From an uncultured Zetaproteobacteria bacterium (GTDB lineage: Bacteria; Pseudomonadota; Zetaproteobacteria; Mariprofundales; Mariprofundaceae), in assembly GCA_964645625.1 (NCBI GenBank), contig CAZYAI010000001.1:52968-116967 (forward strand): a DNA stretch of 64,000 nt, written 5' to 3'. The translations under genes were made by a program, and so were the position numbers. The notes under the pieces were generated by a model that saw nothing but the letters and a program-made list of their open reading frames with translations, was not told the origin of the DNA and did not search any database. Every line of letters begins with the position of its first letter. Position 1 is the first letter of the stretch. Below are positions 1,750-51,026 of the stretch, piece by piece.

Positions 1750-1920
1750 GTGTATTTATTGTATTAGGCCGGTATCCTGGCTGGGTCTTCATACTTTGCT
1801 GCGACCTTCCCGTGTTACCAGTGGTCATGATGCAGCATCGTCGGACGTACAGTAGCGGGGGCTGCGCCAGATTGGTGACTGGACTTCCCGTTTAACGCTT
1901 ACTCTTAAGGGGTGTGGCTT
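1750..1920 (-). promoter_or_regulatory. cobalamin (AdoCbl) riboswitch in the cbiA-cobO leader
   Basis: The minus strand reads ...TTAAACGGGAAGTCCAGTCACCAATCTGGCGCAGCCCCCGCTACTGTA...GACCACTGGTAACACGGGAAGGTCGC...GAAGACCCAGCCAGGATACCGGCC. This contains the conserved GGGAAG, GCCACTG-like and B12-box (AGCCAGGATACCGGCC) elements, in the right order and orientation upstream of cbiA. Confidence 0.8.
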
Positions 1921-1998
1921 CATTGTGTGAATCACACCCCTTAGAGCAAAGCGCACCTAATGCCTCGGCACACTAAGAAGCTGGCTTGGAATAGCAAC

Positions 1999-8957: not shown

Positions 8958-10098
8958 TTTTTCGGCCTGCCGCACGATGGTGGTGGATGATAGCCTTTTA
9001 GACCGTAAGATATTTTGTGCTAGTTTGAAGCGGCTGGGGATTCATCATATTACCCAGTGCTGTAGTGGTCGCGAGGCATTACTTACCTTGGAGGAGCATG
9101 TTCCCGATCTTATTATATTGGATATTCGTTTGGGAGACATGAGTGGCTTGGATTTATGTCAGCAGATTCGCGCTATGCCAGGGCTGGAAAGTACGCCTAT
9201 TGCCATGCAATCGGGGTTGGGTGATATTGAAACCATTAAAGAGGCTTTTCAACGTGGGGCGCATGATTATTTTATCAAACCACTGAAAGAGGAGGAGGTT
9301 GCCGTACGTTTGCAGTCGAGGTTGCTGCTGCGGAACGAAATGAAAGAGCGTGTTCGTCATGCTCAGGAGCTCTCCCTTTTATTGCGCAAAATTCTGCCCG
9401 AGCAGATTGCGCGAGAACTAGAAGATAAAGGCAGTGTACAATCACGTTGGTGTGATGATGCCGTCTTAATGATACTGGATTTTACCGCTGCCAGTCGTGT
9501 TGCCTTGGAGCTGAATGTAGAAGAGCTGATTCAGCACTTTAATGCGCAATTTGATGCCTTTGATACCATCAGCGACCATTATGGTATCACCCGTATTAAA
9601 ACGGTGGGCGATGAATACCAAACCGTTGCAGGCTTGTTTGACGATGACGCGAACATCGCGATTCGTTCGTTAGCGGCAGCCTTTGATATGCGCTGGTTGG
9701 TGCAGCAGTGGATGCATACGCGGCGTGCGCAACAACGTCCTTGTTGGAATGTTCGCCTTAGTGTGCATCGTGGACCAACAGCATGGGGCGTGATGGGCAA
9801 TACACATTTACAATTCGACCTCATTGGCAGTACCATCAACGAGGCACATCGTATCTGCACAGCCGCTAATGATGGTACTATTTGGTGTTCCGAGGCGATT
9901 GCAACAGCGTTGCAGACTTATGCTTCCTTTGACACGCAAGGTGCGACGCATTTGCGTAATATCGGCGATTTTGCATTGTTTGAAGTTACGCAGTTAAGCC
10001 CTGATATACACACCAGCATCGAAGCAATTATTCCAGGGCATGCAGCATGGCACCAAGCGCATTTGCCACGTTTGCTCGAGCGCGTTGTTAGCGTCTAA
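8938..10098 (+). CDS. response-regulator receiver fused to a class III adenylyl/guanylyl cyclase domain
   Basis: REC block (MVVDDSLLDRKIF...LIILDIRLGDMSGLDLC...DYFIKP). Cyclase-homology block (ITRIKTVGDEYQTVAGLF...HRGPTAWGVMGNTHLQFDLIGSTINEAHRI). ATG at 8938 has a GGGAGG RBS, and the gene overlaps the upstream kinase by 20 nt. The ORF track starts at an in-frame TTG at 8932. Confidence 0.8.
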   Translation: MFSSNSDFSACRTMVVDDSLLDRKIFCASLKRLGIHHITQCCSGREALLTLEEHVPDLIILDIRLGDMSGLDLCQQIRAMPGLESTPIAMQSGLGDIETIKEAFQRGAHDYFIKPLKEEEVAVRLQSRLLLRNEMKERVRHAQELSLLLRKILPEQIARELEDKGSVQSRWCDDAVLMILDFTAASRVALELNVEELIQHFNAQFDAFDTISDHYGITRIKTVGDEYQTVAGLFDDDANIAIRSLAAAFDMRWLVQQWMHTRRAQQRPCWNVRLSVHRGPTAWGVMGNTHLQFDLIGSTINEAHRICTAANDGTIWCSEAIATALQTYASFDTQGATHLRNIGDFALFEVTQLSPDIHTSIEAIIPGHAAWHQAHLPRLLERVVSV

Positions 10099-11123
10099 AA
10101 CCAGCCAGCGAGGTTTTCTTCACACAATGTTTTGAGCATGGATTGATGGGGGGCGGAGCTATTTAAGGCTGGAATGTAACGTAGGGATGTGCCTCCAGCT
10201 TCAATAAAGTAATCTCGGTTTTCGACTGCGATTTCTTCCAACGTTTCTAGGCAGTCAGCAGAAAAACCTGGGCAGATGACATCGACACTGGCAACACCTT
10301 GCGCGCCCCACGTTTTCAGCGTCTCATCGGTGTAGGGTGTAACCCAAGGTTCGCGACCGAAACGTGATTGAAAGCTGACAACATAGGCATCATCATCTAA
10401 GTGCAACGATGCAGCGAGCAAACGTGCTGTTTTACGGCATAGGCAAGGGTAAGGGTCGCCAGCATCAAAATAACGTTGCGGAATACCATGGAATGACATC
10501 ATTAAACGCTCAGCCTTGCCATGTGTTGCCCAATGTTGCTCAACGCTATGTTTTAGCGCAGCAATGTACGCAGGGTGGTCGTGGTAGCTGTTGACCACGC
10601 GCAGTTCAGGCAGCCAGCGCCATGTTTTGAGTTCATCGGCAACAGCATCAAAGGTGGAACCACTGGTGGCAGCAGCATATTGCGGGTACAGCGGCAACAC
10701 CAAGATGCGACCACAAGCTTTTTCGCGTAATGCTTGTAAACCATGCGCCATCGATGGGTTGCCGTAACGCATCGCTAATTCTACATGCACTGGCGTACCG
10801 CTAAAATGCGCCTGCAAGGCAGCGACTTGCGCTAAGCTGTGAACCATCAGTGGTGATCCTTGTTCTGTCCATACGCTGCGGTAAGCGGCGGCTGAACGCG
10901 CAGGGCGGGTGTTCAAAATAATGCCATTCAAAATCAGCCACCAAACCACGCGATTCATTTCCACTACGCGAGTATCGGAGAGGAACTCTTTGAGGTAGCG
11001 ACGTAGCGCAGGTGTGCTTGGTTCATCAGGGGTCCCAAGGTTACAGAGTAAAATACCAATATTCGATTGTGCTTTTTCACGTTGGTGAGCCTGTAGTGAT
11101 TCTGTGGATGGAAATGAAGTCAT
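10095..11123 (-). CDS. hemH: ferrochelatase
   Basis: 342 aa. N-terminus GILLCNLGTPDEPSTPALRRYLKEFLSD and overall family pattern. Its 3' end overlaps the convergent cyclase gene by 4 nt. Confidence 0.9.
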   Translation of the reverse strand: MTSFPSTESLQAHQREKAQSNIGILLCNLGTPDEPSTPALRRYLKEFLSDTRVVEMNRVVWWLILNGIILNTRPARSAAAYRSVWTEQGSPLMVHSLAQVAALQAHFSGTPVHVELAMRYGNPSMAHGLQALREKACGRILVLPLYPQYAAATSGSTFDAVADELKTWRWLPELRVVNSYHDHPAYIAALKHSVEQHWATHGKAERLMMSFHGIPQRYFDAGDPYPCLCRKTARLLAASLHLDDDAYVVSFQSRFGREPWVTPYTDETLKTWGAQGVASVDVICPGFSADCLETLEEIAVENRDYFIEAGGTSLRYIPALNSSAPHQSMLKTLCEENLAGWF

Positions 11124-11132
11124 GGTGTTTCC

Positions 11133-11996
11133 TTATATTGTCTTCTGTTGACGTAGTGCGCGTACATCAGTAATGCTTAAACCTGTTTTTTGTGCAATCG
11201 TTTGATCATCCAAGATATCAAGGAAGCTTGCGGCAATGCGTTGAGATGCCAACAACTCACCTTCTTTAAGTCCTTCTTCTTTACCTAGGCGTTGTGCCAG
11301 TTGCAATGCACCACGTTGATCTTGAATGAAGATTTCTCGCCGCTCTTGGTCGTCAAGCTCTTCGGGCGTTAACCCTGCCTTGTTGGCAATAACAAATGCA
11401 TGATTGATGGCATCATCATTTGCTAAAACTTTAGGGATGGCACTCAAATCACCTGCGCATTTGAGGAAGTAGAACCATTTATCCAACAGGGTATCCAACT
11501 CATCCTCTGAACGTTTAAATTTGGGCAACTCTGCAAAAATAAGTTCTAAATCATCGTGGTAAACCAGCCCATTTTCTTCGCGTAACTTAAAACTGTTTAC
11601 CACCTCAGACAGCTCGTTGAACATCACAAAATCGGTGATGGTAATGGCAATAACATCGGTTAAATGTTGATAGTGTTCGCCCATAGTCAGCTGCCCTACA
11701 TAGCTTTTACAGGCATTGTATAACACACGTTTTTCAAAGCCTTCGACGTTGAGTACCTGCATTTCGATGATGTAGGATTTACCCTGTTCATCAAGGGCGC
11801 GAACATCCAAGTAGGTATCTTTCATACCCTTGATTTTAGGGGCTAAATAGGGGTCTATGATTTCCACTTCAGCTATGCGGTGTGGTGCTTCTAAACGCAA
11901 AATTGCGTTGAGAAAACTTAATAAAATATCCGTGCTTTCAGTCGAGCCAAAAATGCGTTTGAAAGCAAAATCTGTTTTAGGGTTCAGAAACCGCAT
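11133..11996 (-). CDS. Rpn/YhgA-like recombination-promoting nuclease (PD-(D/E)XK, 'putative transposase' family), copy 1
   Basis: MRFLNPKTDFAFKRIFGS...YLDVRA.DEQGK.YIIEMQV... is about 90% identical to the two copies at 33085 and 34050. The GAGG RBS/ATG at 11996 has the same AACGAGGT leader as the other copies. The listed ORF start at 12029 is an upstream extension. Confidence 0.85.
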   Translation of the reverse strand: MRFLNPKTDFAFKRIFGSTESTDILLSFLNAILRLEAPHRIAEVEIIDPYLAPKIKGMKDTYLDVRALDEQGKSYIIEMQVLNVEGFEKRVLYNACKSYVGQLTMGEHYQHLTDVIAITITDFVMFNELSEVVNSFKLREENGLVYHDDLELIFAELPKFKRSEDELDTLLDKWFYFLKCAGDLSAIPKVLANDDAINHAFVIANKAGLTPEELDDQERREIFIQDQRGALQLAQRLGKEEGLKEGELLASQRIAASFLDILDDQTIAQKTGLSITDVRALRQQKTI

Positions 11997-12040
11997 AAAT
12001 AACCTCGTTATTGAGCTGATGTTACGCACGGTATAGGAGC

Positions 12041-12637
12041 TTTTTTTATACAGTATCGCAATCTAAAAATCCGTCAACTGCACTTGATACAGTATCCAGT
12101 CTTGCGTCCGTTCGCTGGATTGCGGATCAAGTCCGCAATGACGTGGTTTCCCTCGGTCATGCCGCACTCGATGCGGTATTGCGGATCAAGTCCGCAATGA
12201 CGTGGGTTTCCTCGGTCATGCCGCGCTTGATGCTGCATCCAGTCTTGCGTCCGTTCGCTCCGTCATGCCGCACTCGATGCGGTATTGCGGATCAAGTCCG
12301 CAATGACGTGGGTTTCCTCGGTCATGCCGCGCTTGATGCTGCATCCAGTCTTGCGTCCGTTCGCTCCGTCATGCCGCACTCGATGCGGTATTGCGGATCA
12401 AGTCCGCAATGACGTGGGTTTCCTCGGTCATGCCGCGCTTGATGCGGTATCCAGTCTTGCGTCCGTTCGCTGGATTGCGGATCAAGTCCGCAATGACGTG
12501 GTTTCCCTCGGTCATGCCGCACTTGATGCGGTATCCAGTCTTGCGTCTGTTCACTCGATTACGGATCAAGTCCGCAATGACACGTTGCTACCCAAAAAGT
12601 CACGTATATAACCATGCGTGCGTAACATCAGCTACTG
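12041..12637. repeat. tandem array of hairpin-containing units (periods 59/84/106 bp), bracketed by a perfect 17 bp inverted repeat at 12011-12027 and 12621-12637
   Basis: Core GCGGATCAAGTCCGCAATGAC recurs at 12122, 12181, 12287, 12393, 12477 and 12561. Each carries the hairpin ATTGCGGA-TCAAG-TCCGCAAT. Modules of two kinds are interleaved. The flanks TTTTTATACAGTAT... and ...AAAAAGTCACG..CATGCGTGCGT.ACA.CAG are shared with the single-unit copy at 50849-51012. AGCTGATGTTACGCACG at 12011 is the exact reverse complement of 12621-12637. Confidence 0.8.
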
Positions 12638-12743
12638 CAAATGGATGGGGCAATCATAATCGACCGTTGTGAAGATGTCTTGTGATGCAAAAAGATGCTC
12701 AAGTGATCGCCCCATAAGCTGAAGCGGTGCATTCTGCCGATGC

Positions 12744-13853
12744 ATGCTTTACTATGCGGCGATGAAATTATCTTGCTTTGCCGCTACGCCCTTGGGTTTA
12801 GAGTCTGTTTCCGCTGCCGAGTTGACCGAGTTGGGGGCGCGTAATGCCGTCATCAGCCATGGCGGTGTCACTTTTGATTGCTCGTGGGATGGACTGTTTC
12901 GCATGCAATTACGCGCCCGCACAATCACCCGCGTTTTGCTGCGCGTCGCCGACTTTTCGGTGCGTTACTTTAACGAACTTGAACGCCGCGTAGCGAATTT
13001 GCCGTGGTCACGTTACCTCACGGATGATGCCACCGTGCGCGTGCAAGCGAGCAGTCATCGCTCGCGTTTGCTGCATACTGGGAAGATTGCCGAAACGGTA
13101 CTTTCCGCTATTAAGCGAACGGAAAGCAAAGATGCAACACAGACCATTTTTGTGCGTATGGATAACGACCGTTGCACCATCAGTATCGACCTTTCAGGTG
13201 ATCGCTTGGATCGTCGGGGTTATCGCCTTGAATCAGGTAAAGCACCACTGAGGGAGACCATCGCCGTAGGGCTGTTGCGCTGGAGTGGTTGGCAGCCGAC
13301 TGCGCCCCTTTGCGTGCCGATGTGCGGTTCAGGCACGTGGGCGATTGAAGCAGCACTCATCGCGCAACGTACAGCTGCTAACAGCGAACGTGTATTTCCG
13401 TTTTTGACCTGGCCTTGTTTACCTCAGGCACGTTGGCAAAAAGCGAAGCAGACAGCGCAAAGTTTGCACCCCAGTGCCGCCATGCCTGCGATTCTTGCCA
13501 GTGATGTACATGCAGGTGCGATTGGTATTACGCAGCGCAATGCCGAACGCGCTGGCGTAGCGGCATGTATTGATGTTCAACAGGCTGACTTCCGCATGTT
13601 ACGACCACAAGAGGCACACCCCACGGGCTGGATTTTATGTAATCCGCCTTATGGTTCGCGCTTGAATCCGCAGCAAGGGGACATCTACCAAGACCTTGGT
13701 GCATGGCAGCGGGAATATGCACCTGCTTGGCATTGCTTGGTGATCTGCCCTGATTGGCAAGCGCAGCGAAGCTTGGCGGGTAAACCGCGTATTCATATTG
13801 CATTTTCTAGCGGTGGTAAACGTTTGAGCGCGCTGTTGTTCAGCCCTGAGTAA
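12744..13853 (+). CDS. THUMP-domain class I SAM-dependent RNA methyltransferase (RlmL/COG0116-like, the N6-adenine/N2-guanine MTase fold)
   Basis: 369 aa. N-terminal THUMP-like region. GSGT SAM-binding motif (CVPMCGSGTWAIEAAL) and ILCNPPYG catalytic motif. The start may be the MKLS codon at 12762. Confidence 0.7.
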   Translation: MLYYAAMKLSCFAATPLGLESVSAAELTELGARNAVISHGGVTFDCSWDGLFRMQLRARTITRVLLRVADFSVRYFNELERRVANLPWSRYLTDDATVRVQASSHRSRLLHTGKIAETVLSAIKRTESKDATQTIFVRMDNDRCTISIDLSGDRLDRRGYRLESGKAPLRETIAVGLLRWSGWQPTAPLCVPMCGSGTWAIEAALIAQRTAANSERVFPFLTWPCLPQARWQKAKQTAQSLHPSAAMPAILASDVHAGAIGITQRNAERAGVAACIDVQQADFRMLRPQEAHPTGWILCNPPYGSRLNPQQGDIYQDLGAWQREYAPAWHCLVICPDWQAQRSLAGKPRIHIAFSSGGKRLSALLFSPE

Positions 13854-19925: not shown

Positions 19926-20126
19926 GTAGGGGCTTTCCGTTTAAGACGGGACAAAAGCAATATGGATATGCGAAACATACAAGGTTGTGGTTGAGGTACG
20001 AAACCCAACTTTAAAACAACAATACGTTATTTAGGCTATGCTCCTTTGTTGGGTTTCGTGCCTCAACCCAACCTACATGGTGGTCTTGTAGTGTACGTGC
20101 GTCCCGTCTTAAAAGGGAAGCCAGAG
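19926..20126. repeat. ~200 nt long imperfect palindrome (two stems separated by a ~30 nt internal bubble, ~36 nt apical loop); candidate structured ncRNA or MITE
   Basis: GGCTTTCCGTTTAAGACGGGAC (19932) pairs with GTCCCGTCTTAAAAGGGAAGCC (20102). GGTTGTGGTTGAGGTACGAAACCCAAC (19982) pairs with GTTGGGTTTCGTGCCTCAACCCAACC (20048). The arms diverge only in the central segment. Confidence 0.6.
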
Positions 20127-33084: not shown

Positions 33085-34005
33085 ATGCAGTTTTTGAACC
33101 CTAAAACAGATTTTGCTTTTAAACGTATTTTTGGCTCGACGGAAAGTGCGGATATTTTGCTCAGCTTCCTCAATGCTATTTTGGACTTGGAGTCGCCGTA
33201 TCGCATTGCTGATGTGGAGATTATTGATCCTTATTTAGCACCTAAAATCAAGGGTATGAAAGACACCTATTTGGATGTTCGCGCCCGCGATGAACAGGGC
33301 AAGGCGTACATCATCGAAATGCAGGTGCTGAACGTTGAAGGCTTTGAGAAACGTGTATTATACAATGCGTGTAAAAGTTATGCGGGGCAACTTCATCAAG
33401 GCGAACATTATCAACACCTGAGCGATGTGATTGCGATTACCATCACCGATTTTGTGATGTTCCCTGAGCAAAAGAGCATCGTTAATAGCTTTAAATTGCG
33501 TGCCGAAAACGGTTTGGTGTACCACGATGATTTAGAACTGATTTTTGCTGAGTTGCCCAAGTTTAAGCGTTCAGAGGACGAGTTGGAAACGTTGTTAGAT
33601 AAATGGTTTTACTTCCTCAAATGTGCGGGTGATTTGCGCGCTATTCCTAAAGTGTTGGCAGGTGAAGGTGCGATCAATCACGCATTTGTGATTGCCAATA
33701 AAGCAGGCTTAAGTCGTGAGGAGTTGGACGACCAAGAACGGCGAGAGATTTTCATCCAAGATCAACGCGGCGCATTGCAACTGGCAAAAAGAGTAGGCAA
33801 AGAAGAAGGCTTGAAGGAAGGTAAAGAAGAGGGTCTGAAGGAAGGGGTGGAACAGGGAATAGAACAAGGTGAACGCTTAGCCGCCCAACGTATTGCAAGT
33901 AGTTTTCTTGATATACTCGACGACCAAACGATTGCCCAGAAAACAGGGCTAAACCTTGATGATGTACAGGCGTTGCGTCAGCAAAACAACGATCGTGTTC
34001 AATGA
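33085..34005 (+). CDS. Rpn/YhgA-like recombination-promoting nuclease (PD-(D/E)XK 'putative transposase' family), copy 2
   Basis: 306 aa, near-identical to copy 3 and ~90% identical to copy 1. C-terminal region carries 2 KEEGLKEG-type repeats. Confidence 0.85.
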   Translation: MQFLNPKTDFAFKRIFGSTESADILLSFLNAILDLESPYRIADVEIIDPYLAPKIKGMKDTYLDVRARDEQGKAYIIEMQVLNVEGFEKRVLYNACKSYAGQLHQGEHYQHLSDVIAITITDFVMFPEQKSIVNSFKLRAENGLVYHDDLELIFAELPKFKRSEDELETLLDKWFYFLKCAGDLRAIPKVLAGEGAINHAFVIANKAGLSREELDDQERREIFIQDQRGALQLAKRVGKEEGLKEGKEEGLKEGVEQGIEQGERLAAQRIASSFLDILDDQTIAQKTGLNLDDVQALRQQNNDRVQ

Positions 34006-34049
34006 TGATTGTGCCGTTTCGGATAGATTCCTAAACAACGAGGTGATGT

Positions 34050-34985
34050 ATGCAGTTTTTGAACCCTAAAACAGATTTTGCTTTTAAACGTATTTTTGGC
34101 TCGACGGAAAGTGCGGATATTTTGCTCAGCTTCCTCAATGCTATTTTGGACTTGGAGTCGCCGTATCGCATTGCTGATGTGGAGATTATTGATCCTTATT
34201 TAGCACCTAAAATCAAGGGTATGAAAGACACCTATTTGGATGTTCGCGCCCGCGATGAACAGGGCAAGGCGTACATCATCGAAATGCAGGTGCTGAACGT
34301 TGAAGGCTTTGAGAAACGTGTATTATACAATGCGTGTAAAAGTTATGCGGGGCAACTTCATCAAGGCGAACATTATCAACACCTGAGCGATGTGATTGCG
34401 ATTACCATCACCGATTTTGTGATGTTCCCTGAGCAAAAGAGCATCGTTAATAGCTTTAAATTGCGTGCCGAAAACGGTTTGGTGTACCACGATGATTTAG
34501 AACTGATTTTTGCTGAGTTGCCCAAGTTTAAGCGTTCAGAGGACGAGTTGGAAACGTTGTTAGATAAATGGTTTTACTTCCTCAAATGTGCGGGTGATTT
34601 GCGCGCTATTCCTAAAGTGTTGGCAGGTGAAGGTGCGATCAATCACGCATTTGTGATTGCCAATAAAGCAGGCTTAAGTCGTGAGGAGTTGGACGACCAA
34701 GAACGGCGAGAGATTTTCATCCAAGATCAACGCGGCGCATTGCAACTGGCAAAAAGAGTAGGCAAAGAAGAGGGTTTGAAGGAAGGTAAAAAAGAGGGCC
34801 TGAAGGAAGGCAAAGAAGAGGGCCTGAAGGAAGGAGTGGAACAGGGAATAGAACAAGGTGAACGTTTAGCCGCCCAACGTATTGCAAGTAGTTTTCTTGA
34901 TATACTCGATGATCAAACGATTGCCCAGAAAACTGGTCTAAGCCTTGAAGATGTACACATGCTGCGTCAGCAAAACAGCATGTAA
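34050..34985 (+). CDS. Rpn/YhgA-like recombination-promoting nuclease, copy 3 (tandem duplicate of copy 2)
   Basis: 311 aa, identical to copy 2 over the first ~240 aa. 3 KEEGLKEG-type repeats instead of 2. Divergent last ~20 aa. Same 5' leader CCGTTTCG..TAGA.TCCTAAACAACGAGGT.ATGT. Confidence 0.85.
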   Translation: MQFLNPKTDFAFKRIFGSTESADILLSFLNAILDLESPYRIADVEIIDPYLAPKIKGMKDTYLDVRARDEQGKAYIIEMQVLNVEGFEKRVLYNACKSYAGQLHQGEHYQHLSDVIAITITDFVMFPEQKSIVNSFKLRAENGLVYHDDLELIFAELPKFKRSEDELETLLDKWFYFLKCAGDLRAIPKVLAGEGAINHAFVIANKAGLSREELDDQERREIFIQDQRGALQLAKRVGKEEGLKEGKKEGLKEGKEEGLKEGVEQGIEQGERLAAQRIASSFLDILDDQTIAQKTGLSLEDVHMLRQQNSM

Positions 34986-35049: not shown

Positions 35050-38000
35050 GTGACTGATCAAACTGAACATACAACGATATCTGAACAGGCCGTTGCAGAA
35101 GGCGGCGCGTATGAGGTGATACGTCAGCGTTTAAATACACAGCAGCAATCACTTGAAACGTTCATTAACGAGCTTAACCACAAGCGACAGCAGGAATTTG
35201 GAAGCACCGAAATGAAGGTGCTCGGACGCATGCGGTTGAGAACAGAGAACAACTGTCAGGCGCAAGATTTGGTGTTGGTTGGTGAATACGTCCTGTTTGC
35301 TTATAATGTTCATATCGGCTTGAGGAAGGAAACGCGCATCGAAGATGTGCTTGCTCTTTACACTTTGGTAGAGCAAAACGGTGAATACGATTTGCGCTCG
35401 GTTGCTATCAAAGATTCTTTTCTGGCGGATCACCGTTTTCAAAGCGATTTTCAAGAACTGTATGCTTATTACAAAGATACTTCGCTGTCCCAATTGGTGT
35501 TTAAACACAATAAGCTTATTGCATCGTTTCAGATTGGTGAAAAATTATCAGACGTGCGCGTTTTCCGCTGGGAAGTATCCGATGATGGTCAGCGCGTTGA
35601 TTATATCGATAATCGTGGTGAGCGTGATCTTCGCCTACCAGCCAGCCATGATTTTGAATGGGTGCAGTGTCATCGTGACGATGTGGTCGATGGGCGAAAT
35701 CCGCATATTAACATACTCGATACCTTGTTTGTGGATGCCTCACGTGGCGATATTACGATTAAGGTGGAAGATAACACCAATGTCGGTCTTGGTATTTATT
35801 CCGAACCCGTACAAGAAAAGAATCAGGCTTTGGATGATGCCGAGTTTTATTACGCCGACCTGCAACAACTCATCCTGTTAAAAATCAAGCCTTACCGTGA
35901 AGAGCATTATCGTTATTTGATATATAATCGTAACAATCAGCAAGTGCAACGCATGGATGCTATTGGCGATGCCTGTGTTCAATTACCTGAGGATCACGGT
36001 ATTATTTTCCCTGGTGGTTATTACTTAACCACGGGCGAAATGAAAACCTTTGAAGGTAATCTTGAGCATCTGGTCTATAAACGTGCCATGCGTTCCCCCA
36101 ATGGTGAAGATGTGCTTTATATCTTTTACCAGCCTGAATCCAATGTGATTGTCATGTATGGTTACAATCTGATCGAAAAGTCCTTGCAAAACCCTTTGAT
36201 TGGTCACGGTTATGGCTTTTATGATGATGGTCGGATGATTATTTTTTATGCCGATGATGAGCCTAAACGGGTACACCCTTTGCAAATTTGGCAAACCCCT
36301 TATTGCAGCGAAGTGCATGCCAGCAGGCAAACTGTGGCGCATAGTTTTTATGGTAACATTGGCAATGCTGAACTGGTACGCGGTATTTCTGAGTTGTACA
36401 GCATCAGCAGGAGCATGCGTTCAACCGATGTTTCTTCTGAACACTACCATCGCCTCAGTCAGGCCTGTAGTAAGATTTTTGATAGTTATTATTGGTTAGA
36501 TTCCCCCGAGTTGAAGGGCATCGCCACATTGCTGCGGGAAGTTGCCAGTACTGCTGAGCTGGTGCTTGATGAGTATGAAAAGGTCGAAAGCATTCGTGCC
36601 CAGTCGCGCAAAGCATTGCAGGAGGCTGAAGCGAAGCAACGTGAAATGATTCGTCAAATTACTCCTGATAGCTGGCATGCGCCACAGGCGTTTGTCGATG
36701 GCTTGTTTAGCATACGGCAGCATCGTGGGCATTTGATGACGATCAAATCCTATCGTTATATGGATGTCGCGAAAATCAACCAGCTGGATGCCGATATTGC
36801 AGCGGTAGAGCTTGATTTAAATCAAAAAACCGTAGCTTTCTTGGCTTCTGAAGGCGCGCTTTCCAGCTATGATAAGGTGTTGGATCGCGTTGCGAGCGAA
36901 CGCCTTACCTGCAAAACCCATGCCGAACTTAAACCGCATGTTGAAGCACTTCAGCAATTGGCAGCAGCACTGGATTTGATTGCCGAAATGATGGCATCGC
37001 TCAAGGTGGATGATGCAACGGTGCAAACGCGCATTGTCGATGCGATTTCTGAACTGTATAGCCGCTTGAATCAACAAAAGGCAGAGCTGGAACATCAACG
37101 TAAAAGCGTTGGCAGTGCTGAGGCTGCGGCGCAATTTTCGGCACGGCTTAAGTTACTGAATCAAAGTATGAATAACGCGCTTGGTATGGCAAAGACGCCA
37201 GCGAGCAGTGACGAGCAGTTTTCTCGGCTGCTGGTGCAGTTAGAAGAGCTTGAAGCGGAATTTAGTGACTACGATGATTTTATCGCCGACGTTATTAAAA
37301 AACGTGAAACGATATTCGATGCCTTTGAGGCTCATAAACAGCGGTTGATTGATGCGCAGCAACGTAAGGCACAATCCCTCGCCGATGCTGGCACACGCAT
37401 CTTGCAGAGCGTGCAACGGCGCGTTAAACGCTTCACCACCCAAGAAGAATTAAACACCTTTTTCAGTGGCGATAGTCTGATCAGGAAGGTCAGCGACACC
37501 ATTGAAACATTAAGATCCTTGGATGATAGCGTCAAAGCCGAAGACCTTGATGCGCAATTCAAAGCAATCAGGGAGCAATCCATCCGTTCCCTGCGTGATA
37601 AAAGTGATCTTTATGAATCGGGTGGTCAGCTGATTAAACTTGGCCCACGTCATAAGTTTTCGGTCAACACGCAGGATCTGGATCTCACCATTTTACCCAA
37701 GGGCGATGCCTTATTTATCCGCCTAACAGGTACCGATTATTGTGAGGTACTGGATGATGATGCGCTGAATGCTAAGCGTGCGTATTGGTCGATGGAGCTT
37801 CCTTCTGAAAGTGCGCAGCTTTGTCGTGCTGAATACTTGGCTTATAGCATCTTGCAGGCGGCCAAAAGGCAACAACAGGGTCTTGATTGGCAAGGTTTGG
37901 CGCAAGCTGCCACAGATGCAAAAAGCATGCTGGCGTTGGTCGCAGCATTTGCCGCACCTCGTTATAAAGAGGGGTATGAAAAAGGTATTCACGATCATGA

Positions 38001-40317
38001 TGCCAGCCTGATGTTGCAAAAAATCGTACCTGTTTATGAAACAGCAGGAAGCTTTAAATACGCGCCTGCTGCGCGTGGGCTGGCGGCAATCTATTGGGCG
38101 AATAAATATAATGGGGCGCAGCAACAGCGATGGCCGCAACGGGCTAGGAATGCAGCGCAGATGATGCAGGTTTTTGCTGATTCTAAGGCGCAAACTATCC
38201 TGAGCCTAGAGATTGCGGATGATTTGAGGGCTTTTGTCGCTGAGCATCAATTACCCGCAGATGAACGCGTGTTGACTCGTGCCAGTGAATACTTGAGCGA
38301 TGAATTGGCACAAGAACGGGTGGCTTTTGCGACCACCAAATATGCGCGCTACCTCTGCGATGCTTTTGTCACCCACTTAAAAACGCACAATATCTGGCGC
38401 GATTATGAAACAGCATTGGATGCTATGAAGGGGCAGGTCGGTAAACGTTGGGCGTTGGCAGAAAGTTGGTTGACTGCCTTTGTGCAGTCACAGCATAAGC
38501 CGCAATACAGCAGTTTTATCGCCGAAGCGATTGGCATACTGAACGCAGAACAACGTATTGATCGTGTTGATCGTGAATGTGATGTGCAGCTCACCATCGA
38601 AGGTTTGTTGGCAAGGCATCATAAGATCGAAAATCGCCAACTGACCATTCAACTGGATCAGTTTTTGGATGATAATCGTCATCATATCGAACAGGTGATA
38701 CCTGCCTACGAAGATTATTTGCAAGCGCGCCAGCGCATGATGATTGAAAGGCGTGAAGCTTTGGGGCTGGAGTCATTCAAGGCTAAACCCTTGGCATCGT
38801 TTGTCCGCAATCGGCTCATCAATGAGGTTTATTTGCCTTTGATTGGCGATAATCTGGCCAAACAGATTGGCACAGTAGGCGATAAAAAACGTTCGGACTT
38901 GATGGGTTTATTGCTTATGATCTCGCCGCCAGGTTATGGTAAAACAACGTTGATGGAATACGTGGCTGATCGCTTGGGGCTTATTTTTATGAAGATTAAC
39001 TGCCCTGTGATTGGTCACACCATCACCGCTGTGGATCCACAACAGGCGGATAATAGTGCTGCCCGCCAAGAGCTAGAGAAATTGAACCTAGCATTGGAAA
39101 TGGGCAATAATGTGATGTTGTACCTCGATGATATTCAACATACCAACAGCGAGTTTTTGCAAAAGTTTATTTCGTTATCCGATGGTACGCGCCGCATCGA
39201 AGGGGTGTGGAAAAAACGACCTAAAACGTATGATATGCGCGGCAAGAAGTTCTGCGTGGTGATGGCAGGTAATCCTTACACCGAATCAGGCGAAGCCTTC
39301 CAGATCCCTGACATGCTTGCCAACCGTGCTGATATTTACAATTTGGGTGACGTATTGAGTGGCAAAGAGGCGGTGTTTGAACTCAGTTATATCGAAAATG
39401 CTTTGACCTCCAATCCTGTGTTGGCGCCGCTGGCGACGCGAGACATGGCGGATGTTTACAGATTCCTTGAGATGGTCGATGGCGCAAACATAGCCAGCAC
39501 GGATTTATCTCACCCTTACAGCAGTGCCGAGATCAAAGAAATTGTTGATGTGTTACGCAAAATGAAAGTCATTCAAGGCATTGTATGGAAGGTCAACCAA
39601 GCTTACATCGCCGCCAGTGCGCAGGATGATAAGTACCGCACCGAACCAACATTTAAGTTGCAAGGTTCGTACCGAAACATGAATAAAATGGCAGAAAAAA
39701 TATCGGCAATTATGAGCGATGATGAACTGATGCACCTCGTGGACGATCACTACCAAGGTGAGGCGCAATTGTTGACCACAGGCACGGAAGCCAACCTACT
39801 CAAGCTGGCGGAGATTCGCGCTCGCATGAATGCGCAACAGCAGCAACGTTGGACGCAAATCAAAGCTGATTTTATGCGCAATAAAGCGATGGGCGGTGAT
39901 GATGCCGATGTAGGCAGTAAAATTGTGGTGCAGCTCAATGACTTGGTGGCAGGCATCCATGCTTGGCGAGAAAGCCTTGAACAATCGCATGCCGCAGCAC
40001 ATGAGTCGCAAAATCGCGAACTGCTGGTGAGTAGAGAACAAAATAGTAAAGCGTTGAACAATATCGCCAGGGCTATTGCTCGTGTGGCAGCGCATATAAA
40101 AGCAGAAACGCAGGGCGAAGCGGCTACATCCGCCGATCATATACCATTGGAAAGCCTTACGCATCTACTGGAACATACCTTACACCCGTTGATCAAAATC
40201 ATGTATGGCAAACTTGATTTGGATTTAGGAACGCACAAGAACATGGCGGATATTAACCGAAAATTGGCAGTTATTGATTCATTGGTCAGAAACAAGAAGC
40301 CAAGAACAAAGTCTTGA
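35050..40317 (+). CDS. giant (1755 aa) protein with a single MoxR/AAA_5-type AAA+ ATPase module at ~aa 1290-1480 and ~1250 aa of unassigned N-terminal sequence, including a long coiled-coil
   Basis: Walker A LLMISPPGYGKTTLM (nt ~38925). Walker B VMLYLDDIQH. Sensor region FCVVMAGNPYTESGEAFQIPDMLANRADIY, the same ..NP..(G)...P pattern as CbbQ (VISYNPGYQ) and MoxR (ATQNP). Residues ~560-900 are heptad-rich. One uninterrupted ORF with coding composition throughout. Confidence 0.7.
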   Translation: MTDQTEHTTISEQAVAEGGAYEVIRQRLNTQQQSLETFINELNHKRQQEFGSTEMKVLGRMRLRTENNCQAQDLVLVGEYVLFAYNVHIGLRKETRIEDVLALYTLVEQNGEYDLRSVAIKDSFLADHRFQSDFQELYAYYKDTSLSQLVFKHNKLIASFQIGEKLSDVRVFRWEVSDDGQRVDYIDNRGERDLRLPASHDFEWVQCHRDDVVDGRNPHINILDTLFVDASRGDITIKVEDNTNVGLGIYSEPVQEKNQALDDAEFYYADLQQLILLKIKPYREEHYRYLIYNRNNQQVQRMDAIGDACVQLPEDHGIIFPGGYYLTTGEMKTFEGNLEHLVYKRAMRSPNGEDVLYIFYQPESNVIVMYGYNLIEKSLQNPLIGHGYGFYDDGRMIIFYADDEPKRVHPLQIWQTPYCSEVHASRQTVAHSFYGNIGNAELVRGISELYSISRSMRSTDVSSEHYHRLSQACSKIFDSYYWLDSPELKGIATLLREVASTAELVLDEYEKVESIRAQSRKALQEAEAKQREMIRQITPDSWHAPQAFVDGLFSIRQHRGHLMTIKSYRYMDVAKINQLDADIAAVELDLNQKTVAFLASEGALSSYDKVLDRVASERLTCKTHAELKPHVEALQQLAAALDLIAEMMASLKVDDATVQTRIVDAISELYSRLNQQKAELEHQRKSVGSAEAAAQFSARLKLLNQSMNNALGMAKTPASSDEQFSRLLVQLEELEAEFSDYDDFIADVIKKRETIFDAFEAHKQRLIDAQQRKAQSLADAGTRILQSVQRRVKRFTTQEELNTFFSGDSLIRKVSDTIETLRSLDDSVKAEDLDAQFKAIREQSIRSLRDKSDLYESGGQLIKLGPRHKFSVNTQDLDLTILPKGDALFIRLTGTDYCEVLDDDALNAKRAYWSMELPSESAQLCRAEYLAYSILQAAKRQQQGLDWQGLAQAATDAKSMLALVAAFAAPRYKEGYEKGIHDHDASLMLQKIVPVYETAGSFKYAPAARGLAAIYWANKYNGAQQQRWPQRARNAAQMMQVFADSKAQTILSLEIADDLRAFVAEHQLPADERVLTRASEYLSDELAQERVAFATTKYARYLCDAFVTHLKTHNIWRDYETALDAMKGQVGKRWALAESWLTAFVQSQHKPQYSSFIAEAIGILNAEQRIDRVDRECDVQLTIEGLLARHHKIENRQLTIQLDQFLDDNRHHIEQVIPAYEDYLQARQRMMIERREALGLESFKAKPLASFVRNRLINEVYLPLIGDNLAKQIGTVGDKKRSDLMGLLLMISPPGYGKTTLMEYVADRLGLIFMKINCPVIGHTITAVDPQQADNSAARQELEKLNLALEMGNNVMLYLDDIQHTNSEFLQKFISLSDGTRRIEGVWKKRPKTYDMRGKKFCVVMAGNPYTESGEAFQIPDMLANRADIYNLGDVLSGKEAVFELSYIENALTSNPVLAPLATRDMADVYRFLEMVDGANIASTDLSHPYSSAEIKEIVDVLRKMKVIQGIVWKVNQAYIAASAQDDKYRTEPTFKLQGSYRNMNKMAEKISAIMSDDELMHLVDDHYQGEAQLLTTGTEANLLKLAEIRARMNAQQQQRWTQIKADFMRNKAMGGDDADVGSKIVVQLNDLVAGIHAWRESLEQSHAAAHESQNRELLVSREQNSKALNNIARAIARVAAHIKAETQGEAATSADHIPLESLTHLLEHTLHPLIKIMYGKLDLDLGTHKNMADINRKLAVIDSLVRNKKPRTKS

Positions 40318-50732: not shown

Positions 50733-50848
50733 TAACATAGCGGGCATGGTGTTTTTACACCCCCGTGATACAAGTTTTATATCATGGGGTGGCAAAGCCA
50801 TGCCCGTTAATTAAGCGGCTGATATTACGTAAGGCATGAGATCTTTTT

Positions 50849-51012
50849 TATACAGTATGGATAAAACAGCATAGCAATCTAAAAAAATGTCATGCTTCGC
50901 TTGATTTAATATCCAGTCTTGCGTCTGTTCGCCGAGTGGCGGATTAAGTCTGCAATGACGCATTGCTACTCAAAAAGTCACGAGTAAAATCATGCGTGCG
51001 TGACACCAGTTA
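50849..51012. repeat. single-unit member of the hairpin-repeat family seen as an array at 12041-12637
   Basis: Shares left flank TTTTTTATACAGTAT...GCAATCTAAAAA, core ATCCAGTCTTGCGTC.GTTCGC, and right flank TTGCTAC.CAAAAAGTCACG...CATGCGTGCGT.ACA.CAG with the array. Contains hairpins GCGGATTAAGTCTGC and GCAATGACGCATTGC. Confidence 0.6.
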
Positions 51013-51026
51013 AGCAGACAAGGATC

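What the first reader, a model, noticed from the sequence alone, without database searches (positions are those of the whole stretch)
11133..12637. Rpn copy 1 is wedged between hemH and a 600 bp hairpin-repeat array bracketed by a perfect 17 bp inverted repeat
The rpn stop lies 9 nt upstream of the hemH start on the same strand, so hemH is now probably transcribed through rpn. Immediately 5' of rpn is a tandem array of hairpin units (12041-12637). The sequence AGCTGATGTTACGCACG at 12011-12027 is the exact reverse complement of 12621-12637, so the whole array sits inside the loop of what was a 17 bp perfect stem. This looks like a MITE-like element that inserted into a palindromic site (a terminator-like hairpin) and then expanded internally. 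An Rpn (transposase_31-family) nuclease next to a structured repeat array recalls the RAYT/REP pairing; the array might be a cognate substrate of the Rpn nuclease. The 5' UTR of this rpn copy includes the left arm of the inverted repeat.
Basis: partly seen in the sequence, partly recalled or inferred. Interest (0 to 1): 0.6.

Follow-up and report, generated by a model that had tools for sequence, protein, structure and literature searches.

The report
Small transposon with expandable hairpin array
The hairpin-repeat block upstream of this rpn gene is a small non-coding transposon whose internal hairpin units vary in number between strains; other copies lie far from any rpn gene, so its position next to this nuclease gene looks coincidental.

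Summary
The features are real, but the inverted repeat sits 3-4 nt from the stated coordinates: 12014-12030 and 12617-12633. It is not an old hairpin split by an insertion. Fifteen of its 17 bp are the terminal inverted repeats of a MITE-like element at 12016-12631.

- **Second copy:** a 191-bp single-unit copy with the same ends lies at 50819-51009 beside ssb, flanked by TTAAGCGG/TTAAGCAG.
- **Empty site:** a related lineage (L010, Rpn 91% identical, same rlmL-rpn-hemH order) has neither arm and a single TTACTGAG.
- **Interior:** REP-like hairpins (CGTC tag, 8-bp stem, 5-nt loop) alternate in orientation at fixed spacings, as in a BIME. Stem pairing is kept by compensatory changes.
- **Polymorphism:** strains with identical flanks carry arrays of 510, 616 or 762 nt.
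- **No Rpn link:** six further copies or fragments of the family were found in the same organism, none within 10 kb of an rpn gene. The other two rpn genes in the window carry no element, and 80 Rpn loci from other species have none.

The Rpn is TIGR01784/PF12784, not Transposase_31. Verdict: an undescribed MITE family in a Mariprofundaceae bacterium that landed in the predicted rpn-hemH leader. The Rpn/REP pairing idea is not supported. Interest is modest.

The parts
12016..12631 (+). MITE-like non-autonomous element, expanded copy (616 nt): left inverted repeat, leader, array of REP-like hairpins, tail, right inverted repeat
   Evidence: Boundaries come from the empty site in L010 and from alignment of ends with other copies. 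The element has no coding potential: periods of 59 and 106 nt are not multiples of 3, and the gene calls made over it in metagenomes have no Pfam family.
12016..12030 (+). Left terminal inverted repeat, CTGATGTTACGCACG
12617..12631 (-). Right terminal inverted repeat, a perfect complement of the left one
12008..12015 (.). Left copy of the putative 8-bp target duplication, TTATTGAG
   Evidence: The empty site in L010 has a single TTACTGAG. This copy matches it at 7 of 8 positions.
12632..12639 (.). Right copy of the putative 8-bp target duplication, CTACTGCA (degenerate)
   Evidence: The spacing against the empty site is exactly 8 nt. This copy matches the empty site at 5 of 8 positions.
12080..12582 (+). 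BIME-like array: 6 'A' hairpins (ATTGCGGATCAAGTCCGCAATGACG) and 7 'B' hairpins (GTCATGCCGCACTCGATGCGGTAT) in opposite orientations, with fixed spacings of 12, 23 and -2 nt
11133..11996 (-). rpn copy 1 (287 aa, TIGR01784/PF12784). Its ATG lies 19 nt from the element's left end.
10095..11123 (-). hemH (ferrochelatase), 9 nt downstream of the rpn stop codon
12653..12681 (-). Promoter-like site AAGACA-17-TATGAT facing rpn, just outside the element's right end
   Evidence: The same hexamers and spacing occur in L010, 33 nt upstream of the rpn ATG. This is a consensus match only.
12744..13853 (+). Divergent neighbour: RlmL-like THUMP methyltransferase
50819..51009 (+). Second copy of the same element, basal single-unit form (191 nt), between ssb and a hypothetical gene. 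It is flanked by TTAAGCGG (50811-50818) and TTAAGCAG (51010-51017).
   Evidence: It is present at the same length in other strains.
33085..34985 (+). rpn copies 2 and 3 in tandem (33085-34005 and 34050-34985), with no element beside them

Best explanation
Window 12016-12631 is a non-autonomous transposon of the MITE type.

**Shown**
- It has 15-bp perfect terminal inverted repeats starting CTGATG. The imperfect similarity between the two ends extends to about 45 nt.
- It inserted as one discrete unit 19 nt upstream of the rpn ATG, creating a target duplication of about 8 bp.
- The basal form is about 190 bp: two inverted ends around one tail-to-tail pair of REP-like hairpins.
- In this copy the interior has grown to 13 hairpins. 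The modules are A, a 12-nt spacer, B, then a 23-nt linker.
- The module number differs between otherwise identical strains.
- Adjacency to rpn is not a family trait. Other copies sit beside ssb, NUDIX/argJ, hemD, mgtE and others.

**Inferred**
- It is moved in trans by a DDE-type transposase, not found here, that recognises the shared ends.
- The array expands and contracts by unequal recombination or replication slippage between the near-identical modules.
- The insertion lies between a conserved promoter-like site and the ribosome-binding site. The rpn-hemH transcript would then carry the whole structured element as its leader, which could change expression.
For: - **Empty versus filled site.** L010 has the same rlmL-rpn-hemH order, with Rpn and HemH each 91% identical. 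It has neither arm and a single TTACTGAG. The window reads TTATTGAG[element]CTACTGCA.
- **Same ends elsewhere.** The four ends of the two window copies fit CTGRTRTYACGYAMG, and nothing else in 64 kb does. L104 15078-15702 and L105 18233 carry the same ends.
- **Flanking direct repeats.** TTAAGCGG/TTAAGCAG at 50819-51009. TTAACTT/TTAACTT at L104 15078-15702.
- **Multi-copy family.** Eight loci lie in about 124 kb of this organism. Short-read contigs break inside the 191-bp copy.
- **Array polymorphism.** Alleles of 510, 616 and 762 nt have identical flanks and differ by whole modules.
- **Structural constraint on the hairpins.** Across 29 distinct unit variants, 93.5% of stem positions pair. 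Four of 8 stem pairs show compensatory double changes. None of 500 shuffles reached the observed pairing.
- **No link to Rpn.**. Published work on the E. coli Rpn proteins (PF04754) reports no sequence specificity, no terminal repeats or target duplications, and no known autonomous PD-(D/E)XK transposase (PMC5350276, PMC10400941).
- **Leader position.** The promoter-like site lies outside the element and is conserved in L010.
Against: - No transposase with matching ends was found. The window has none and the organism's full genome could not be scanned.
- The target duplication at this locus is degenerate, 4 of 8 between the two copies, although the inverted repeats are perfect. At L104 the flanking repeat is 7 bp, not 8.
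- Some loci (L104 10012-10151, L105 9915-10144) carry hairpin modules with badly decayed or absent ends. The interior is better conserved than the ends, which hints at a second process acting on the hairpins.
- Copy counts come from loci chosen because they carry arrays, so density and lack of enrichment near rpn are not unbiased estimates.
- The promoter is only a consensus match; about 1 is expected by chance in the region scanned.
Confidence: 0.8

Rival explanations
1. The hairpins are genuine REPs, and the array is a BIME built and propagated by a REP-associated tyrosine transposase or another single-strand-specific enzyme. On this view the inverted ends are only a conserved leader and tail. 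A weaker version has the MITE shell moved by a DDE enzyme while array growth is enzyme-driven rather than by slippage.
For: - The units fit the published description of CGTC-tagged REPs: tag, 8-bp stem starting AT, 5-nt loop, head-to-head dimers.
- Orientations alternate at fixed spacings, as in BIMEs.
- Compensatory changes preserve the stems.
- G.T wobbles are commoner on the tag-first strand of each unit, 21 against 6.
- Modules are better conserved than the ends.
- The genome also holds classical GTAG REPs, so a tyrosine transposase is likely present.
- BIMEs are known to vary in length between strains (PMC2817692).
Against: - Every hairpin unit found in about 124 kb lies inside one of the eight element-derived loci. 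None is solitary or dispersed.
- The empty site shows the whole unit, end to end, arriving at once with an 8-nt duplication. Three copies have flanking direct repeats, which tyrosine-transposase insertions do not make (established knowledge of IS200/IS605-type elements).
- No tyrosine transposase gene was seen in any locus fetched.
- The wobble counts are not independent events.
Confidence: 0.15
2. One reading: the array is the cognate substrate of the adjacent Rpn nuclease, analogous to RAYT/REP, and the adjacency is functional.
For: - One expanded array abuts rpn copy 1.
- CGTC-type REPs have no known dedicated enzyme (PMC3733652).
- The E. coli Rpn authors left open a specific in vivo target (PMC5350276).
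Against: - Seven of 8 element loci have no rpn within 10 kb.
- rpn copies 2 and 3 have no element.
- The orthologous rpn in L010 has no element, and no unit occurs in that 20-kb locus.
- Eighty Rpn loci totalling 1.13 Mb from other species have no element and no non-coding array abutting rpn.
- Repeats lie on only one side of the gene.
- Tested E. coli Rpn is non-specific, and rpn genes lack terminal repeats and target duplications.
Confidence: 0.04
3. The element has been co-opted as a cis-regulatory leader. Its hairpins would attenuate, stabilise or terminate the rpn-hemH transcript, and array length would tune expression of a toxic nuclease and of ferrochelatase.
For: - It sits between a conserved promoter-like site and the ribosome-binding site.
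- It folds strongly, z about -7.7 as RNA on the rpn strand.
- Length alleles exist.
- REPs and MITEs are known to affect neighbouring mRNAs (PMC3733652). The BrickBuilt MITE carries promoters (PMC4596501).
Against: - There are no expression data.
- The promoter is a consensus match only.
- Other copies sit in unrelated contexts and orientations.
- No terminator-like site was predicted in the region.
- An effect on expression would not explain the element's origin.
Confidence: 0.1
4. The 17-bp inverted repeat was a pre-existing terminator-like hairpin that was split by the insertion.
For: The 17/17 complementarity is perfect.
Against: - The empty site lacks both arms.
- The arms recur as the ends of other copies.
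- No T-run terminator was predicted.
Confidence: 0.01

Closest known systems
Bacterial MITEs that carry an internal minisatellite, such as 'BrickBuilt' of Porphyromonas gingivalis (PMC4596501)
   Same: Both are small and non-coding. Both have leader and tail subunits with inverted-repeat ends around a tandem array whose length varies. Both are intergenic, multi-copy and limited in host range.
   Different: - BrickBuilt repeats a plain 23-nt unit head to tail. Here the units are palindromic hairpins in alternating orientation with two kinds of spacer.
- There is no sequence similarity, and the host is a Zetaproteobacterium.
- Promoter activity has not been tested here.
REP clusters (BIMEs) and CGTC-tagged REPs (PMC2817692, PMC3733652)
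   Same: - The units are imperfect palindromes of about 24 nt with a (C/G)GTC tag, an 8-bp stem starting AT and a 5-nt loop.
- They form head-to-head dimers and alternate in orientation at regular spacings.
- Array length varies between strains, and compensatory changes keep the stem.
   Different: - The units were seen only inside an element bounded by inverted repeats and target duplications, never dispersed.
- Copy number appears modest.
- No associated tyrosine transposase was seen.
RAYT/REP pairing (REPtrons)
   Same: A nuclease-type gene lies next to an array of palindromic repeats.
   Different: - Rpn is a PD-(D/E)XK protein, not an HUH tyrosine transposase.
- Repeats lie on one side of the gene only.
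- Paralogues and the orthologue lack them, and most arrays lack rpn.
Rpn (YhgA-like) recombination-promoting nucleases with intragenic antitoxins, E. coli (PMC5350276, PMC10400941)
   Same: - The proteins have a PD-(D/E)XK core and are named 'Rpn family' by TIGR01784.
- There are several paralogues.
- The C-terminal tail differs by the number of 4-residue repeats.
- The gene has lower GC than its surroundings.
   Different: - The Pfam family is PF12784, not PF04754.
- No internal start or antitoxin has been shown here.
- No link to the element was found.

Membership tests
MITE (non-autonomous element with terminal inverted repeats) | Small, with no coding capacity | tested here: met
   The basal copy is 191 nt and the expanded copy 616 nt. 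Only repeat-derived ORFs occur, and the corresponding gene calls in metagenome contigs have no Pfam family. Array periods of 59 and 106 nt are not multiples of 3.
MITE (non-autonomous element with terminal inverted repeats) | Terminal inverted repeats shared by copies | tested here: met
   The repeats are perfect over 15 of 15 positions here. The four ends in the window fit CTGRTRTYACGYAMG and nothing else in the window does. The same ends occur in L104 and L105.
MITE (non-autonomous element with terminal inverted repeats) | Target-site duplication and a discrete insertion | tested here: met
   The empty site in L010 differs by exactly the element plus 8 nt. Flanking repeats match 7 of 8 at 50819-51009 and 7 of 7 at L104 15078-15702. 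They are degenerate at this locus, 4 of 8.
MITE (non-autonomous element with terminal inverted repeats) | Multiple copies in the genome | tested here: met
   Eight loci lie in about 124 kb of the organism. The sample is biased towards loci with arrays.
MITE (non-autonomous element with terminal inverted repeats) | An autonomous insertion sequence with the same ends | not testable with these tools
   No transposase is encoded in the window. The organism is absent from both scannable DNA collections. No plasmid matched.
CGTC-tagged REP / BIME | Short palindrome: tag, 8-9-bp stem starting AT, 4-5-nt loop | tested here: met
   The reverse complement of A reads CGTC-ATTGCGGA-CTTGA-TCCGCAAT. B reads (C/G)GTC-ATGCCGCA-CTCGA-TGCGGTAT. 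The definition comes from PMC3733652. Across variants, 93.5% of stem positions pair and 4 of 8 pairs covary.
CGTC-tagged REP / BIME | Alternating orientation at regular spacing; head-to-head dimers | tested here: met
   The same arrangement holds in all copies: A, 12 nt, B, 23 nt, A.
CGTC-tagged REP / BIME | High-copy dispersal through the genome as singletons and dimers | tested here: not met
   All units found, with up to 4 mismatches allowed, lie inside the eight element-derived loci. None is solitary in about 124 kb. The whole genome was not available.
CGTC-tagged REP / BIME | An associated tyrosine transposase flanked by the repeats (required for GTAG REPs; none is known for CGTC REPs) | not testable with these tools
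   None appears among the gene calls of the fetched loci.
RAYT/REP-like cognate pairing of Rpn with the array | The nuclease gene is flanked by its repeats in inverted orientation | tested here: not met
   The array is on the 5' side only. The 3' side is 9 nt from hemH.
RAYT/REP-like cognate pairing of Rpn with the array | The gene and the repeats co-occur across paralogues, orthologues and genomes | tested here: not met
   One of 3 rpn genes and one of 8 element loci are adjacent. L010 has rpn without the element. Eighty Rpn loci lack it.
Rpn family / Transposase_31 | Match to TIGR01784 or PF12784, as opposed to PF04754 | tested here: met
TIGR01784 scores 157.6 bits against a cut-off of 52.1. 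PF12784 has E=1.3e-49. PF04754 is not detected at E<=10.
CRISPR array | Identical repeats separated by unique spacers | tested here: not met
   The spacers are themselves repeated: a 12-13-nt spacer and a 23-nt linker.

The most novel reading that the evidence does not exclude
This could be a two-tier mobile element. A shell bounded by inverted repeats and target duplications carries CGTC-type REP dimers, a repeat class with no known dedicated transposase. The REP modules would themselves be substrates of a strand-specific single-strand DNA enzyme, which would multiply and homogenise them inside the shell.

That reading would account for three observations: the modules are better conserved than the ends, stem pairing is kept by compensatory changes, and wobble pairs favour the tag-first strand. 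It would also suggest one route by which orphan CGTC REPs spread.
Probability: 0.15. Interest if true: 0.5.

Novelty: new member of a known kind. Interest (0 to 1): 0.3.

Why it matters
- It removes an attractive but unsupported idea, that Rpn nucleases have a REP-like cognate repeat.
- It documents an undescribed MITE family in iron-oxidising Zetaproteobacteria, with a clean empty-site and filled-site pair.
- The interior behaves like a BIME and varies in length between co-occurring strains, so it could serve as a strain marker.
- It is a natural case of a structured repeat array lying in the predicted leader of an operon that pairs a potentially toxic nuclease with ferrochelatase.
- If the hairpin modules are actively multiplied, the element bears on how CGTC-type REPs, which lack a known transposase, are made and spread.

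Tried and rejected
- **Genome-contig scan** for the linker motif ATCCAGTCTTGCGTCYGTTC gave 0 hits, so the species is not among the GTDB representatives.
- **Metagenome-contig scan** with the same motif gave 3 hits, all chance matches inside unrelated coding DNA.
- **Plasmid blastn** with the 191-bp copy found nothing.
- **Rfam**, at gathering thresholds and at E<=1, found nothing relevant.
- **Transposase in the window:** none among 20 large ORFs.
- **Outward promoter in the element's left end:** none by the consensus scan.
- **Coding potential of the array:** rejected. The ORFs follow the repeats and shift frame with them.
- **CRISPR:** rejected.
- **rpn 'wedged' into an older rlmL-hemH junction:** could not be shown. 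More distant Zetaproteobacteria have different genes upstream of hemH and no conserved gene order. Rpn loci in other Mariprofundaceae genomes lack hemH and rlmL.
- **IS4-family parent:** the ends start CTGATG, like IS10 from memory. I did not pursue this because the duplication length (7-8 bp here, 9 bp for IS10) does not fit and no parent element is available.
- **What worked:** translating a spurious ORF from the array and searching the protein database recovered the other copies in this organism.
Full report
**1. The observation**

The rpn ORF ends at 11133 and hemH starts at 11123 on the minus strand, leaving a 9-nt gap. Pfam identifies the genes as PDDEXK_2 (PF12784) and ferrochelatase.

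The 17-mer AGCTGATGTTACGCACG and its exact reverse complement are both present, at 12014-12030 and 12617-12633. About 0.03 matches are expected by chance in the window.

Between the two arms lie six copies of GCGGATCAAGTCCGCAATGAC and seven of a second hairpin, GTCATGCCGCACTCGATGCGGTAT. Tandem periods are 59, 84 and 106 nt. The region folds far better than shuffled sequence, with z about -7 as RNA or DNA.

**2. The inverted repeat belongs to a mobile element**

- A seventh, diverged hairpin at 50939 led to a 191-bp copy of the same element at 50819-51009, between ssb and a hypothetical gene.
- That copy shares the leader (CTTTTTTATACAGTAT, GCAATCTAAAAA), the linker, one hairpin, the tail (TTGCTACNCAAAAAGTCACG) and both ends.
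- The four ends in the window fit CTGRTRTYACGYAMG, and nothing else in 64 kb does.
- The short copy is flanked by TTAAGCGG and TTAAGCAG.

**3. Empty site**

Exact-protein look-ups placed the window in metagenome contigs of one organism. Names attached to the closest Rpn and HemH homologues point to Mariprofundaceae, Zetaproteobacteria.

A related lineage, L010, has Rpn and HemH each 91% identical, the same rlmL-rpn-hemH order and the same 9-nt gap. Its intergenic region is only 174 bp.

- L010 reads ...CCTCGTTACTGAG|AATGGATGGGGCAATC...
- The window reads ...CCTCGTTATTGAG[CTGATG...CATCAG]CTACTGCAAATGGATGGGGCAATC....

So the element is 12016-12631. Neither arm pre-exists and the target is not palindromic. 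The extra 8 nt fit an 8-bp target duplication, although it is degenerate at this locus.

**4. More copies, none next to rpn**

The organism is absent from both scannable DNA collections. I therefore translated a spurious ORF from the array and searched the protein database. Look-ups of the hits gave three further regions from the same samples, holding six more copies or fragments:

- L101 about 9990-10342, between NUDIX and argJ.
- L104 1690-1831.
- L104 10012-10151.
- L104 15078-15702: complete, with 6 A and 6 B units, inverted ends, and TTAACTT on both flanks.
- L105 9915-10144, beside hemD.
- L105 18233-18369.

No PDDEXK_2 gene lies within 10 kb of any of them.

In the window, rpn copies 2 and 3 (33085-34985) have no element. 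Eighty Rpn loci from other species, totalling 1.13 Mb, contain no copy and no non-coding array abutting rpn. Short-read contigs break inside the 191-bp copy, as expected for a repeated sequence.

**5. Anatomy of the interior**

Read with the tag first, the units are:

| Unit | Tag | 5' stem | Loop | 3' stem |
|---|---|---|---|---|
| A (reverse complement) | CGTC | ATTGCGGA | CTTGA | TCCGCAAT |
| B | (C/G)GTC | ATGCCGCA | CTCGA | TGCGGTAT |

This matches the published description of CGTC-tagged REPs: an 8-9-bp stem starting AT, a 4-5-nt loop and mostly head-to-head dimers (PMC3733652).

The arrangement is fixed in every copy. A and B lie head to head 12 nt apart. B is followed 23 nt later by A or by another B, or B and A are fused with a 2-nt overlap. 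This resembles a BIME (PMC2817692).

Across 29 distinct unit variants, 93.5% of stem positions pair and 4 of 8 pairs show compensatory double changes. None of 500 shuffles reached this, and slid registers give 20-46% pairing. G.T wobbles are commoner on the tag-first strand of each unit, 21 against 6. These are not independent events, so I treat the bias only as a hint.

Unlike classical REPs, every unit found lies inside one of the eight element-derived loci.

**6. Dynamics**

At the rpn locus, strains with identical flanks and identical ends carry arrays of three lengths that differ by whole modules:

| Loci | Array length | Units |
|---|---|---|
| L001, L011 | 510 nt | 5 A, 5 B |
| Window | 616 nt | 6 A, 7 B |
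| L002, L004, L012, L013 | 762 nt | 8 A, 8 B |

The copy beside ssb is constant in length in the strains sampled.

**7. Consequence for rpn-hemH (inferred)**

A promoter-like site, AAGACA-17-TATGAT, faces rpn at 12681-12653, just outside the element. The same site lies 33 nt upstream of the rpn ATG in L010. The insertion point would then be a few nucleotides downstream of the start site, putting the whole element in the leader.

No promoter-like or terminator-like site lies between the rpn start and hemH, so co-transcription is plausible. None of this has been tested experimentally.

In more distant Zetaproteobacteria hemH follows other genes and rpn is absent. The rpn-hemH pairing is therefore specific to this lineage, but a 'wedging' event could not be reconstructed.

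**8. The Rpn genes**

All three are TIGR01784/PF12784, not PF04754. They differ mainly in the number of 4-residue (K/E)EG(L/K/V/I) repeats in the C-terminal tail. The same kind of variation is reported for the E. coli Rpn toxins, whose antitoxins are encoded within the same gene (PMC10400941).

That study finds no terminal repeats or target duplications around rpn genes and notes that no autonomous PD-(D/E)XK transposase is known. RpnA shows no sequence specificity in vitro (PMC5350276). These results are for the sister family PF04754.

**9. Comparison and verdict**

The closest described architecture is a MITE with an internal minisatellite, BrickBuilt of P. gingivalis (PMC4596501). The interior resembles CGTC-REP and BIME clusters.

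I file the feature as a new member of the bacterial MITE kind, with a BIME-like, strain-variable cargo. The mobilising transposase is unknown. A second, hairpin-directed process cannot be excluded, because the modules are better conserved than the ends and some fragments lack recognisable ends.

Noticed in passing
window 33085-34985, compared with 11133-11996: The three Rpn paralogues are 87% identical. They differ mainly by the number of 4-residue (K/E)EG(L/K/V/I) repeats in the C-terminal tail, giving 287, 306 and 311 aa. The same kind of variation is reported for the E. coli Rpn toxins, whose antitoxins are encoded within the same gene.
   Followed up: partly
window about 19930-20125: A different small repeat: two inverted classical GTAG REPs (GTAGGTTGGGTTGAGGCACGAAACCCAAC) nested inside an inverted pair of GTCCCGTCTTAAA.GGGAGGC motifs. 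The same families recur in L101, L104 and L105, sometimes abutting or disrupting copies of the MITE. A second GTAG REP type (GTAGGGTGGATAAGCG...) occurs in L104.
   Followed up: partly
window 11200-12000: GC content is 0.41-0.43 across rpn copy 1, against 0.48-0.55 in hemH and rlmL. This is consistent with horizontal acquisition of rpn.
   Followed up: no
window 35050-40317: A 1755-aa DUF3686 ('ATPase involved in DNA repair') plus DUF7902 protein lies directly downstream of the rpn2-rpn3 tandem. It is followed on the other strand by VWA/CbbQ-like genes and RuBisCO. Whether it forms a unit with the rpn genes is unknown.
   Followed up: no
window 1750-1956 (-): A cobalamin riboswitch (RF00174, 79 bits) lies upstream of a cobyrinic-acid a,c-diamide synthase-like gene.
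   Followed up: no
L104 8165-9544 and 3828-8168: A TIR-domain protein and a 1446-aa WD40/beta-propeller protein lie next to one of the element fragments. They may form a defence-like island in the same organism.
   Followed up: no
L003/L014 start, L109 start, L019/L020 ends: Metagenome and short-read contigs repeatedly break inside the arrays or inside the 191-bp copy. These elements are therefore probably under-represented or collapsed in genomes assembled from metagenomes for this group.
   Followed up: partly
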